The notes beneath the pieces were generated by a model. That model saw nothing but the letters and a program-made list of their open reading frames with translations. It was not told where the DNA came from and ran no database searches. Positions 37,719-48,636 of a stretch of DNA of 64,000 nt are shown piece after piece; position 1 is the first letter of the stretch, and each line of letters opens with the position of its first letter. The stretch lies in the IMG/VR virus record IMGVR_UViG_2880378312_000006; one strand, written 5' to 3'. The stretch comes from a virus (Duplodnaviria; Heunggongvirae; Uroviricota; Caudoviricetes). A program made the position numbers and the translations under genes.

Positions 37719-38033
37719 ATGCTACATGATCACCTGGCAGAATGTCTGGAGAAAAAAGGACTGTACCGGAGAGCAGCTGAACGATGGGCAAAAGTGATGG
37801 TACAGCTAAGTGATGACCAGAAAAGAAAAGTGGCGGCACAGAAACGAGCAGAGTGTTTGCGTAAGGCGCGCCGGACTCCGGTTTCACCGGTGAACCTGAC
37901 CGAAATAAAACAAGCGGTCAACAGACTACATTCTGAGTTGGGAATGGGATTTGAAGAGCGGCGGGTATTCCGACGATATAAAGGGACAGGAGAACAGAAT
38001 ACGTCCGGAAACGCGCGGTCAAAAAAATGCTAA
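37719..38033 (+). CDS. pch: PerC-family transcriptional regulator (Pch-like), 104 aa
   Basis: Size and N-terminal motif (LAECLEKKGLYRRAAERWAKVM) resemble PerC/Pch; located between the lysis cassette and cos. Confidence 0.65.
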   Translation: MLHDHLAECLEKKGLYRRAAERWAKVMVQLSDDQKRKVAAQKRAECLRKARRTPVSPVNLTEIKQAVNRLHSELGMGFEERRVFRRYKGTGEQNTSGNARSKKC

Positions 38034-38114: not shown

Positions 38115-38339
38115 TTAAGTAAACCTGTCTGAACAGGTTCTCTGGTCGTGTTTGTCTTTGTTGGGTACAAATTGAGAATATTTTTCATTAATTAATCTTC
38201 TTCTGCAGGCTTCAATAACCCACGCTGAAAAATTTCCTGAACCTTTCAGATCAAGAGCGATGTTAATTTGTTCAATCATCTGGTTTGGAAATCGGATGTT
38301 GCGGGTTGTTGTTCTGCGGGTTCTGTTCTTTGATGACAT
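38115..38339 (-). CDS. Small basic protein with ribbon-helix-helix-like signature (74 aa), opposite strand to the flanking late genes
   Basis: RNIRFPNQMIEQINIALD...NFSAWVIEACRRRL resembles a beta-strand plus two helices (Arc/CopG-like). Confidence 0.4.
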   Translation of the reverse strand: MSSKNRTRRTTTRNIRFPNQMIEQINIALDLKGSGNFSAWVIEACRRRLINEKYSQFVPNKDKHDQRTCSDRFT

Positions 38340-38537
38340 AATGTTGCCCCATATTCAGTGTTGCTGATTTGTATTATCTGAAGTTGCTTTTACGTTAATT
38401 TGATGCAGATCAATTAATACGATACCTGCGTCATAATTGATTATTTGACGTGGTTTGATGGCGTAGATGCACGTTGTGACATGTAGATGATAATTATTAT
38501 CATTTTGCGGGTCCTTTCCGGCGATCCGACCGGTTAC

Positions 38538-38549
38538 GGGGCGGCGACC
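38538..38549 (+). other. cos: cosN: lambda 12-nt cohesive end GGGCGGCGACCT
   Basis: 38531-38580 reads cggttacGGGGCGGCGACCTcgcgggttttcgctatttatgaaaattttccgg, matching the lambda cos sequence; lies 176 bp upstream of Nu1. Confidence 0.9.
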
Positions 38550-38646
38550 TCGCGGGTTTTCGCTATTTATGAAAATTTTCCGGGGAAAATCATGTCGGTA
38601 CTTCTCGAACATAACTATTTGTTTTTTCTAATATCGAATCCGTAAA

Positions 38647-38701
38647 GGTCCGACATGAAAACGCCTGAAAAAGTCATTTTCGGGCACTTTCATGTCGGAC
38701 C
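38647..38701. repeat. 14-bp perfect inverted repeat (ggtccgacatgaaa / tttcatgtcggacc) between cosN and Nu1, with a third CATGTCGG copy at 38591; candidate cosB (terminase small subunit binding) elements
   Basis: Read directly. Confidence 0.6.
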
Positions 38702-38725
38702 CTGTATTTGTTGTGAGACTGTTTC

Positions 38726-39245
38726 ATGAAGGTTAATAAAAAGAAACTTGCCGAAATTTTCAACGTGGATCCGCGAACGATTGAACGCTGGCAGTCTCAG
38801 GGGCTCCCTTGCGTCTCCGGAGGTGGTAAGGGCGTTGAATCTGTATTTGATACCGCCACGGCAATTCAGTGGTATGCGCAGAGGGAAGCTGATATCGAAA
38901 ATGAAAAACTCCGTAAAGAGGTTGAGGATTACAGGGCTGCCAGCGAGGCAGATCTCCAGCCTGGGACTATTGAGTACGAACGCCATCGACTTACGCGTGC
39001 GCAGGCTGACGCCCAGGAGCTGAAGAATGCCAGAGACTCCGCAGAAGTGGTGGAAACCGCATTCTGTACTTTCGTGCTGTCACGGATCGCAGGTGAAATT
39101 GCCAGTATTCTTGACGGGATCCCTCTCTCAGTACAGCGGCGTTTTCCGGAACTGGAAAACCGACATGTTGATTTCCTGAAACGGGATATCATCAAAGCCA
39201 TGAACAAAGCAGCCGCGCTGGATGAACTGATACCGGGGTTGCTGA

Positions 39246-39271
<26 letters not shown>
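38726..39271 (+). CDS. nu1: Terminase small subunit Nu1, 181 aa
   Basis: C-terminal two thirds nearly identical to lambda Nu1; N-terminal DNA-binding region diverged. Confidence 0.95.
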
Positions 39272-42952
<3,681 letters not shown>

Positions 42953-48213: not shown

Positions 48214-48636
48214 ATGTTTCTGAAAACAGAACAATTTGAATATAACGGTGTGTCCGTCACGCTTTCCGAATTGTCTGCGCTGCAGCGGTTTGATTATATA
48301 AAGTTTGTTTCAGACGCAGAACAACAGGAGACAACGAAGCATGATGTCGTGCACATTAACCAGCGATATCTGGAAACGGCATCCCTGCTTGTGGCGATGT
48401 CGCTATGGCATTCCCATTCCCTCAAAGGCACTCTGGCCTCTCCGGAGACAGAGATGCAGCAGATCCGCCGTGAAGTGATGCTGGGATGGCCTGCTGATGC
48501 ACTGAATCAGGCAACGAACCGGGTGCTTTATCTTTCAGGTATGCTGGATAACCGGCACGATGCCGATCCTGAACAAACCGGTAAAGCAGAAGCGACTGAG
48601 TCGGTAACATCAAAAAAGCATTCGAAGGCGAGCTGA
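48214..48636 (+). CDS. G: Tail assembly chaperone gpG, 140 aa
   Basis: MFLKTEQFEYNGVSVTLSELSALQR... matches lambda gpG. Confidence 0.9.
   Translation: MFLKTEQFEYNGVSVTLSELSALQRFDYIKFVSDAEQQETTKHDVVHINQRYLETASLLVAMSLWHSHSLKGTLASPETEMQQIRREVMLGWPADALNQATNRVLYLSGMLDNRHDADPEQTGKAEATESVTSKKHSKAS

What the first reader, a model, noticed from the sequence alone, without database searches (positions are those of the whole stretch)
38531..38726. Lambda cosN conserved, but cosB and the Nu1 DNA-binding domain replaced
The 12-nt cohesive end and flanking sequence match lambda cos. The region between cosN and Nu1 instead carries a 14-bp perfect inverted repeat (ggtccgacatgaaa ... tttcatgtcggacc) plus a third CATGTCGG copy. 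In parallel, the N-terminal domain of Nu1 differs from lambda while the rest is near-identical. This looks like a specificity swap of the packaging-initiation module.
Basis: partly seen in the sequence, partly recalled or inferred. Interest (0 to 1): 0.35.

Follow-up and report, generated by a model that had tools for sequence, protein, structure and literature searches.

The report
Phage 21-type cosB/terminase packaging module
This is the DNA-packaging start site of a lambda-like prophage of E. coli O157:H7 that carries the long-known "phage 21" version of the terminase-binding repeats together with the matching DNA-binding domain of the small terminase, so it is real and correctly read but ordinary.

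Summary
cosN (GGGCGGCGACCT) lies at 38539-38550 with lambda-like flanks. Three CATGTCGG boxes (+, -, +) lie between cosN and the small-terminase (TerS) start at 38726. Two of them form the only perfect 14-nt inverted repeat in the 64-kb window.

The region aligns without gaps through R1 to the GenBank-annotated R3-I1-R2-R1 cosB of phage 21 (M81255.1). TerS residues 13-27, including the recognition helix and specificity residues E20 and S24, are identical to phage 21 gp1. R3 bp 56 and 59 are G and G, as in phage 21.

The 21-like block covers only about 38584-38937: cosB plus roughly 65-72 codons, which is the winged-helix DNA-binding domain. cosQ, cosN, I2, the rest of TerS (98% identical to lambda Nu1) and TerL are lambda-type. 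This makes it a natural counterpart of the Feiss laboratory's viable, 21-specific lambda-21 hybrid hy51.

Helix type and box type co-occur without exception in 115 related loci. About 1,170 of 5,426 complete E. coli genomes carry the module. Binding was not tested here; the mechanism is inferred from phage 21 and lambda genetics. Novelty: already known. Interest: low.

The parts
38509..38515 (+). cosQ heptamer GGGTCCT (packaging-termination subsite; lies within the site annotated 'R4' in the phage 21 record)
   Evidence: Read directly from the sequence. It is invariant in the alignment with lambda, phage 21 and IdasGreatGrand. The phage 21 record annotates R4 at the homologous position. The literature states that the 7-bp cosQ is highly conserved (PMC4669245). 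The exact heptamer identity comes from my own knowledge of lambda bp 48473-48479.
38539..38550 (+). cosN cohesive-end sequence GGGCGGCGACCT (bp 1-12 of the virion left end)
   Evidence: It is the only exact match in the window. It is identical in lambda and phage 21 and is annotated as the 'cos site' in phage DE3.
38551..38587 (+). Right flank of cosN plus the I2 region, lambda-type up to 38582; the first 21-type informative site is at 38584
   Evidence: Informative sites 38556, 38562, 38580 and 38582 agree with lambda. From 38584 onward they agree with phage 21. I2 is annotated at the homologous phage 21 position 196-210.
38588..38603 (+). R3 box (AATCATGTCGGTACTT), the principal TerS-binding site; core CATGTCGG at 38591-38598 is bp 53-60
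   Evidence: It is homologous to phage 21 R3 (record positions 216-231), with 1 difference in 16. bp 56 (38594) and bp 59 (38597) are G and G as in phage 21, where lambda has T and C. These two positions are reported as critical for recognition (PMC4669245).
38610..38624 (-). [quoted passage not shown]
   Evidence: It is homologous to phage 21 I1 (238-252). AAACAAATAGTTA on the minus strand at 38612-38624 matches the IHF consensus WATCAANNNNTTR with 1 mismatch. It is the only such match in 38551-38760.
38645..38660 (-). R2 box (AAGGTCCGACATGAAA on the + strand), inverted relative to R3 and R1
   Evidence: It is identical 16/16 to phage 21 R2 (273-288).
38688..38703 (+). R1 box (TTTCATGTCGGACCCT)
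   Evidence: It is homologous to phage 21 R1 (316-331), with 2 differences in 16 and an identical core 8-mer.
38726..38937 (+). TerS codons 1 to about 70: winged helix-turn-helix DNA-binding domain of phage 21 type. The junction with lambda-type sequence lies between about 38918 and 38940.
   Evidence: Residues 1-54 are 89% identical to phage 21 and 56% to lambda. Residues 13-27 are 100% identical to phage 21. The best PDB match is 7lwr, whose sequence equals phage 21 gp1 residues 1-54 (E = 5e-29). Informative sites place the junction. E. coli genomes of the authentic phage 21 lineage align only up to query position 336, which is window 38919.
38938..39271 (+). TerS codons about 72-181: lambda-type oligomerisation and TerL-binding part
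   Evidence: Residues 73-181 are 98% identical to lambda Nu1 and 50% to phage 21 gp1. The whole protein matches Pfam Phage_Nu1 over 1-164/164, E = 4e-91.
39246..41171 (+). Large terminase subunit (TerL, gpA), lambda-type, matching the lambda-type TerS C-terminus
   Evidence: Residues 1-200 are 95.5% identical to lambda gpA and 65% (ungapped) to phage 21 gp2. Residues 1-60 are 88% versus 45%. The ORF is intact at 641 aa.

Best explanation
The region is the cos site of a lambdoid prophage of E. coli O157:H7. Its initiation subsite cosB and the matching TerS DNA-binding domain are of phage 21 packaging specificity. They are set in an otherwise lambda-type packaging apparatus (cosQ, cosN, I2, TerS C-terminal half, TerL).

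Mechanism, inferred by homology to lambda and phage 21:
1. IHF bends the DNA at I1.
2. A dimer of the TerS winged-helix domains docks on the inverted R3 and R2 boxes across the bend. R1 is a third site.
3. The lambda-type TerS C-terminus holds the lambda-type TerL over cosN.
4. TerL makes the staggered nicks that create the 12-nt cohesive ends, and packaging proceeds rightward.

Because the recognition helix (E20, S24) and the R boxes (bp 56 and 59 = G, G) are of the 21 type, this terminase should start packaging on its own DNA and on other 21-type DNA but not on lambda-type cosB. It should still be able to terminate at any lambda-like cosQ-cosN.

The roughly 355-bp block is a recombinational cassette. 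One end is the conserved cosN/I2 sequence. The other lies at about TerS codons 65-72, just upstream of the stretch (codons about 74-103) that is highly conserved between lambda and phage 21.
For: Shown here:
- The region aligns to phage 21 cos without gaps from cosN through R1. The three boxes and the IHF site fall on the sites annotated in M81255.1.
- Divergence between this lineage and phage 21 avoids the boxes. There are 3 differences in 48 box positions and 1 in 24 core positions, against 10/27 in the R2-R1 spacer and 8/23 between R1 and the ATG.
- TerS residues 13-27 are identical to phage 21 gp1. The DNA-binding domain is 89% identical to the solved phage 21 domain 7lwr, and wing-tip Lys35 is kept.
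- The block has sharp mosaic boundaries.
- TerS C-terminus and TerL N-terminus are both lambda-type.
- Helix type and box type co-occur perfectly in 115 loci.
- The genes are intact. A free phage, IdasGreatGrand, isolated from swamp mud, has 99% identical cos and TerS, so this combination supports a viable phage.

From the literature:
- Lambda and 21 share cosQ and cosN but package self DNA more than 1000-fold better than each other's. Residues 20 and 24 and R3 bp 56 and 59 are the determinants.
- The lab hybrid lambda-21 hy51 (21 cosB plus the 5' part of gene 1 on a lambda backbone) is viable and 21-specific (PMC4669245).
- The chimeric TerS showed that the C-terminal half carries TerL-binding specificity (PMC9026076).
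Against: No binding or packaging assay exists for this particular sequence.

The domain differs from phage 21 gp1 at 6 of 54 positions. Four of them (V30A, G32K, G34S, V37I) are in the wing, which contacts the minor groove. R3 has A where phage 21 has G at bp 54. A subtly shifted specificity therefore cannot be excluded.

The left 'boundary' rests on only four informative sites, because cosN and I2 are nearly identical in all these phages.

Whether this particular prophage is inducible is unknown. In one 100%-identical strain the tail gene J is frameshifted.
Confidence: 0.93

Rival explanations
1. The R2-spacer-R1 dyad works mainly as a nucleic-acid hairpin, not as protein-binding sites. It could be an RNA stem-loop in the late transcript just upstream of the TerS ribosome-binding site (controlling translation or stability) or a DNA cruciform.
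For: The 25-nt arms are 88% complementary. The predicted RNA hairpin is -36.4 kcal/mol with z = -8.7. Phage 21 folds equally well (-35.5, z = -7.3) although its spacer differs at 10 of 27 positions.
Against: - The minus strand folds as well or better (-38.0), so there is no strand asymmetry pointing to an RNA.
- By my reading of the structures, the two paired double changes between the window and phage 21 switch mismatch to wobble on one strand and the reverse on the other, which looks like a decaying DNA palindrome.
- Across 12 diverse family members only the 10 R-box core pairs are kept and the spacer pairing is not conserved.
- R3 lies outside any hairpin and 100 bp away, yet it changes in concert with R2 and R1 and with the recognition helix. 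Only protein recognition explains that.
- No terminator-like T-run follows the stem.
Confidence: 0.05
2. This is a third, new packaging specificity. The module descends from the phage 21 type, but its wing substitutions and altered R3 and R1 flanks make it functionally distinct from phage 21.
For: The wing sequence SGGGKGV differs from phage 21 SKGSKGI at four positions and resembles lambda's GGGKG. R3 bp 54 is A versus G, and the R1 flank is GGACC versus GGGCC. The lineage is only 84-88% identical to phage 21 in nucleotides over the module.
Against: - The recognition helix and the genetically defined discriminator residues 20 and 24 are identical to phage 21.
- bp 56 and 59 are also identical.
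- R2 is 16/16 identical, and the core 8-mers of R2 and R1 are unchanged.
- Lys35 is conserved.
- R1-flank variants GGACC and GGCCC coexist within the lineage with the same protein, so those positions look neutral.
Confidence: 0.04
3. This is a relic cos in a defective prophage. The repeats are inherited but no longer functional, and nothing is packaged from this site.
For: O157:H7 carries many defective lambdoid prophages (my own knowledge). In strain FRIK944, which is 100% identical over this region, the J gene is frameshifted and an adjacent recE is truncated.
Against: TerS and TerL are intact. cosQ, cosN and all three box cores are intact, and the cores are conserved in every one of the 19 distinct sequence variants found with this N-terminus. 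A free-living phage shares the module at 99% identity. A tail defect would not stop cos cleavage or packaging by a helper.
Confidence: 0.1

Closest known systems
Phage 21 cos and gene 1 (GenBank M81255.1; Feiss laboratory)
   Same: It has the same subsite order R3(+)-I1-R2(-)-R1(+) at the same distances from cosN. R2 is identical, and R3 and R1 are near-identical with the same core. The TerS recognition helix is identical, and the DNA-binding domain is 89% identical to PDB 7lwr.
   Different: Only the cosB and DNA-binding-domain block is 21-like (84-88% nucleotide identity). TerS residues 73-181 and TerL are lambda-type, 98% and about 95% identical to lambda against 50% and 65% to phage 21. 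R3 carries the consensus CATGTCGG, where phage 21 has CGTGTCGG.
Laboratory hybrid phage lambda-21 hy51 (chimeric TerS; Frackman/Feiss work, as described in PMC4669245 and PMC9026076)
   Same: The design is the same: phage 21 cosB plus the 5' end of the 21 TerS gene (HTH domain) on lambda cosQ/cosN, lambda TerS C-terminus and lambda TerL. The hybrid is viable and 21-specific.
   Different: This one is natural. The replaced segment is shorter: the 21-type block ends about 400 bp from the cohesive end, at TerS codons about 65-72, against the roughly 600-bp left-end segment described for hy51. Its 21-like part is a diverged relative of phage 21, not phage 21 itself.
Lambda cosB and gpNu1
   Same: The architecture, spacing, IHF site, protein family (Pfam Phage_Nu1) and wHTH fold (PDB 1j9i, 6hn7) are the same. 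cosQ, cosN and I2 are near-identical, as are the TerS C-terminal half and TerL.
   Different: The R boxes are CATGTCGG-type, not CGTTTCC-type. The recognition helix is [11 protein letters not shown] versus SIRTIQNWQEQ. The literature reports more than 1000-fold mutual discrimination for the lambda/21 pair.
N15 / Monarch cosB and PICI Rpp-redirected packaging
   Same: These are further examples of changing packaging specificity by changing the wHTH:R-site pair while keeping cosQ/cosN and TerL (PMC4669245, PMC6739421, PMC9026076).
   Different: N15 has a single R site. PICIs use a separate Rpp protein that heterodimerises with TerS. Here there is a complete three-box cosB and an ordinary TerS.

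Membership tests
Lambda-like cos packaging site (cosQ-cosN-cosB) | 12-nt cohesive-end sequence with strong identity to lambda's, plus the conserved 7-bp cosQ about 30 bp upstream | tested here: met
   GGGCGGCGACCT is at 38539-38550, identical to lambda and phage 21. GGGTCCT is at 38509-38515.
Lambda-like cos packaging site (cosQ-cosN-cosB) | Complex cosB: three R sequences with R2 inverted relative to R3 and R1, and an IHF site between R3 and R2, lying between cosN and the TerS gene | tested here: met
   The boxes are at 38588-38603 (+), 38645-38660 (-) and 38688-38703 (+). An IHF-consensus match with 1 mismatch is at 38612-38624. The TerS ATG is at 38726.
Lambda-like cos packaging site (cosQ-cosN-cosB) | Actual cleavage at cosN giving 12-nt 5' cohesive ends | not testable with these tools
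   This needs end-sequencing of virion DNA or an in vitro cos-cleavage assay.
Nu1-family small terminase (Pfam PF07471) | Full-length match to the family profile above the curated threshold | tested here: met
   303 bits against a cut-off of 30, covering profile positions 1-164 of 164.
Nu1-family small terminase (Pfam PF07471) | [quoted passage not shown] | tested here: met
   At sequence level, residues 1-54, 1-68 and 1-70 align end to end with the solved domains 7lwr (E = 5e-29), 1j9i and 6hn7. No structure was predicted here.
Nu1-family small terminase (Pfam PF07471) | Encoded immediately upstream of, and overlapping, the large-subunit gene | tested here: met
   TerS is at 38726-39271 and TerL at 39246-41171. 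RefSeq annotates the same pair.
Phage 21 packaging-specificity class | Recognition-helix residues 20 and 24 of the 21 type (E20, S24, versus lambda Q20, E24) | tested here: met
   Residues 13-27, [15 protein letters not shown], are identical to phage 21 gp1. The role of residues 20 and 24 is from PMC4669245.
Phage 21 packaging-specificity class | R3 bp 56 and bp 59 of the 21 type (G, G, versus lambda T, C) | tested here: met
   Window positions 38594 and 38597 are both G, the same as phage 21 record positions 222 and 225.
Phage 21 packaging-specificity class | Co-inheritance of 21-type helix with 21-type R boxes in relatives | tested here: met
   28 of 28 loci with the 21-type helix have three C[AG]TGTCGG boxes and no lambda boxes. 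None of 87 loci with a lambda-type helix has a 21-type box. The 28 fall into two lineages with 19 sequence variants, so independent sampling is limited.
Phage 21 packaging-specificity class | Functional discrimination: packages 21-cosB DNA and not lambda-cosB DNA | not testable with these tools
   This needs helper-packaging or transduction assays.
Authentic phage 21 terminase (gp1 + gp2) | 21-type TerS C-terminal half and 21-type TerL | tested here: not met
   TerS residues 101-181 are 38% identical to phage 21 and 97.5% to lambda. TerL residues 1-60 are 45% versus 88%. The terminase is therefore a lambda/21 chimera and not a phage 21 terminase.

The most novel reading that the evidence does not exclude
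The natural chimera may define a minimal portable specificity cassette of about 355 bp: R3 through TerS codon about 70. This cassette would shuttle between lambdoid prophages that share one lambda-type TerL chassis, so that co-resident O157 prophages are partitioned into non-competing packaging groups. Its lambda-like wing (GGGKG) and consensus R3, or the unusually long R2-R1 hairpin, might give it properties that phage 21 itself does not have.
Probability: 0.08. Interest if true: 0.35.

Novelty: already known. Interest (0 to 1): 0.1.

Why it matters
It matters little for discovery. The lambda/21 packaging-specificity pair has been a model system since the 1980s, and the same hybrid architecture was built and characterised in the laboratory.

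Its practical value is in annotation and ecology. cos subsites are not annotated in the O157:H7 RefSeq record examined. Knowing that this prophage is 21-specific, while an Stx1 phage of the kind carried by O157-type strains is lambda-specific on an otherwise near-identical terminase chassis, predicts which prophages and cos-bearing elements can and cannot be cross-packaged. That bears on the mobilisation of defective prophages and virulence genes.

It is also a clean natural illustration that the TerS DNA-binding domain and cosB travel together as one recombinational unit.

Tried and rejected
1. RNA or DNA hairpin function for the R2-R1 dyad. The hairpin folds strongly. However, both strands fold equally well, the spacer pairing is not conserved in the wider family, and R3 co-varies although it lies outside the hairpin. 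I rejected this as the main function.

2. A fourth functional CATGTCGG copy inside TerS at 39160-39167. It lies in the lambda-type C-terminal part, which is 100% identical to lambda across this stretch, so lambda has it too although it does not use this box. I treated it as a chance match.

3. Other cos sites in the window. There are none; only matches with 2 mismatches, at the chance level.

4. Literature search for the PDB entries 7lwr, 7lxs and 7lw0. No primary paper turned up in the library. I identified 7lwr as phage 21 only from its sequence being identical to gp1 residues 1-54.

5. Listing the other TerS-like places in a single O157 genome to type each co-resident prophage. The search tool returns one row per record, so I examined one Stx1 phage from the phage collection instead.

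6. A first repeat-statistics script timed out. I rewrote it and it ran.

Full report
**What is there.** The window around 38200-39500 contains the lambda cohesive-end sequence GGGCGGCGACCT at 38539-38550. It is the only exact copy in the 64-kb window. The conserved cosQ heptamer GGGTCCT precedes it at 38509-38515. A 181-aa ORF follows at 38726-39271 and overlaps a 641-aa ORF at 39246-41171.

The 181-aa protein is a full-length member of Pfam Phage_Nu1 (303 bits, profile 1-164/164). Between cosN and its start codon lie three copies of CATGTCGG:
- 38591-38598 (+)
- 38650-38657 (-)
- 38691-38698 (+)

The last two sit in a perfect 14-nt inverted repeat (38647-38660 / 38688-38701) that extends to 25-nt arms at 88% complementarity.

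**Chance.** The 8-mer occurs 7 times in the window against 2.3 expected. Three copies within 110 bp has a window-wide probability of about 1e-5. The 14-nt perfect inverted repeat is the only one in the window with arms no more than 60 nt apart, against 0.025 expected.

**Identity of the repeats.** A megablast search of 38480-39280 against phage records gave two kinds of hit.
- Lambda-like phages matched in two pieces, skipping the middle of the query.
- Phage 21 (M81255.1) matched continuously across the middle at 84% identity.

The phage 21 record carries curated binding-site features: R4, the cosN region, I2, R3, I1, R2, R1 and I0. The window and phage 21 align without gaps from cosN through R1, at an offset of +38372. 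This places the window's sites as follows:

| Site | Window coordinates | Comparison with phage 21 |
|---|---|---|
| R3 | 38588-38603 | 1 difference in 16 |
| I1 | 38610-38624 | contains the only IHF-consensus match in the region (AAACAAATAGTTA, 1 mismatch) |
| R2 | 38645-38660 | 16/16 identical |
| R1 | 38688-38703 | 2 differences in 16, core identical |

The differences between this lineage and phage 21 are concentrated outside the boxes: 10 of 27 positions in the R2-R1 spacer and 8 of 23 between R1 and the ATG. That is the pattern expected for conserved binding sites.

**The protein.** TerS residues 1-54 are 89% identical to phage 21 gp1 and 56% to lambda Nu1. Residues 13-27, [15 protein letters not shown], include the recognition helix and are identical to phage 21. 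Residues 73-181 are 98% identical to lambda and 50% to phage 21.

The best solved-structure match is 7lwr, whose sequence equals phage 21 gp1 residues 1-54 (E = 5e-29). The lambda domains 1j9i and 6hn7 come next. The six differences from the phage 21 domain are K7R, V30A, G32K, G34S, V37I and T45M. None lies in the recognition helix, four lie in the wing, and wing-tip Lys35 is kept.

**Mosaic boundaries.** An informative-site analysis against lambda and phage 21 gave this picture:
- lambda-type sequence up to 38582
- 21-type sequence from 38584 to about 38937
- a short mixed zone at 38918-38940, which is codons about 65-72
- lambda-type sequence from there on

TerL is also lambda-type: 95.5% identical over 200 residues, and 88% versus 45% over the first 60. 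The swapped unit is therefore about 355 bp: cosB plus the DNA-binding domain. The TerS C-terminus stays matched to its lambda-type TerL partner.

An independent result agrees. E. coli genomes carrying the authentic phage 21 lineage align to this block only up to query position 336, which is window 38919.

**What the literature says.** Feiss and colleagues (PMC4669245) report the following:
- The difference lies in the TerS recognition helix (residues 20 and 24) and the R sites (R3 bp 56 and 59).
[quoted passage not shown] Murialdo and Feiss (PMC9026076) add three points. The chimeric TerS showed that the C-terminal half carries TerL-binding specificity. The general cosB layout is R3-I1-R2-R1 with R2 inverted. 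An IHF-induced bend lets a TerS dimer dock on R3 and R2.

In the window, residues 20 and 24 are E and S, and bp 56 and 59 (38594 and 38597) are G and G. All four are the phage 21 states. The window is therefore a natural equivalent of hy51, with a somewhat shorter replaced segment.

I collected 116 related loci from viral and genome collections. I classified the recognition helix and the upstream boxes in every locus where both could be read, together with the window and the reference loci already fetched; that gave 115.
- All 28 loci with the 21-type helix have three C[AG]TGTCGG boxes and no lambda-type box.
- All 87 loci with a lambda-type helix have no 21-type box.

The 28 loci are 19 distinct variants in two lineages: phage 21 itself, and the chimeric lineage with a lambda-type C-terminus. 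The test is clean, but the sampling is not deeply independent. All variants keep the three core 8-mers.

**How common, and where.** The 801-bp region is 100% identical in many O157:H7 chromosomes. There it lies in a lambdoid prophage between a lysis cassette, an antirepressor gene, a PerC-family gene and a YlcI/YnfO gene on one side and lambda-like head and tail genes on the other.

The 21-type block occurs in about 1,170 of 5,426 complete E. coli genomes. About 564 records match at 95% identity or better (this lineage) and about 806 at 80-90% (the authentic phage 21 lineage). The authentic phage 21 C-terminal half occurs in 663 genomes.

A free phage from swamp mud, IdasGreatGrand, has the same cos and TerS at 99% identity. 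An Stx1a-converting phage of the kind found in O157-type strains has lambda-type cosB and a lambda-type domain on an otherwise near-identical backbone. In O157 genomes the whole query hits 4 places but the 21-type block hits only 1.

**Rival: hairpin.** The R2-spacer-R1 region folds as RNA at -36.4 kcal/mol (z = -8.7), and phage 21 folds similarly. Three results argue against a hairpin as the main function.
- The minus strand folds as well or better.
- In an alignment of 12 diverse family members only the 10 box-core pairs are maintained.
- R3 cannot be part of the hairpin, yet it changes in concert with R2 and R1.

I therefore treat the extended dyad as residual palindromy around two inverted protein sites. 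A secondary role is not excluded.

**Verdict.** The thing is the phage 21 packaging-specificity module in a natural lambda/21 chimeric terminase. It is already known in kind and in mechanism, and it is common in E. coli. Binding, cleavage and discrimination by this exact sequence are inferred from homology and were not tested here.

Noticed in passing
Loci L089-L097, L109-L111, L113-L116, L118-L120: Lambda-type TerS/cos sequences appear in genome assemblies of unrelated organisms (Kitasatospora, Chromatium, Paenibacillus, Pseudomonas, Oceanobacillus, Shewanella, Bradyrhizobium, Limosilactobacillus and a Nanosynbacter MAG). They are often on tiny contigs or on contigs of about 48.4-48.5 kb. This is almost certainly lambda control-DNA contamination of those assemblies.
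   Followed up: no
window 38640-38710: The R2-spacer-R1 region forms an unusually long, stable predicted hairpin on either strand (-36 to -38 kcal/mol, z about -8). Phage 21 keeps a similar hairpin despite 10/27 spacer differences. The spacer pairing is not conserved in more distant relatives.
   Followed up: partly
window 37719-38033 (+) and 38115-38339 (-): A PerC-family transcriptional-activator homologue (Pfam PerC, E = 5e-44) and a YlcI/YnfO (DUF3950) gene sit between the lysis cassette and cos. This is moron-like cargo next to the packaging site, typical of O157 lambdoid prophages.
   Followed up: partly
window 38487-38645 (+); L002 2862-3140: ORFs run across cosN and cosB. The IdasGreatGrand record annotates a 'hypothetical protein' that starts upstream of cosN and runs across it into cosB. 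Such an ORF would be split in linear virion DNA and is probably a spurious call.
   Followed up: no
window 38813-38826 (TerS residues 30-34): Within the 21-type domain the wing loop reads SGGGKG, as in lambda (GGGKG), where phage 21 has SKGSKG. Informative sites 38814, 38819, 38820 and 38825 are lambda-like. This is either a tiny mosaic patch or lineage-specific drift in the minor-groove-contacting wing.
   Followed up: partly
O157:H7 genomes and L121: Each O157:H7 chromosome listed has 4-5 places matching the lambda-type TerS C-terminus/TerL junction, while the three O157-type records listed for the 21-type cosB/domain block have only one. The one Stx1a phage examined is lambda-type. Co-resident prophages therefore appear to share a terminase chassis but differ in initiation specificity.
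   Followed up: partly
window 39160-39167 (-): A fourth CATGTCGG copy lies inside the lambda-type part of the TerS gene. The stretch is 100% identical to lambda, so lambda has it too and it is judged a chance match.
   Followed up: yes
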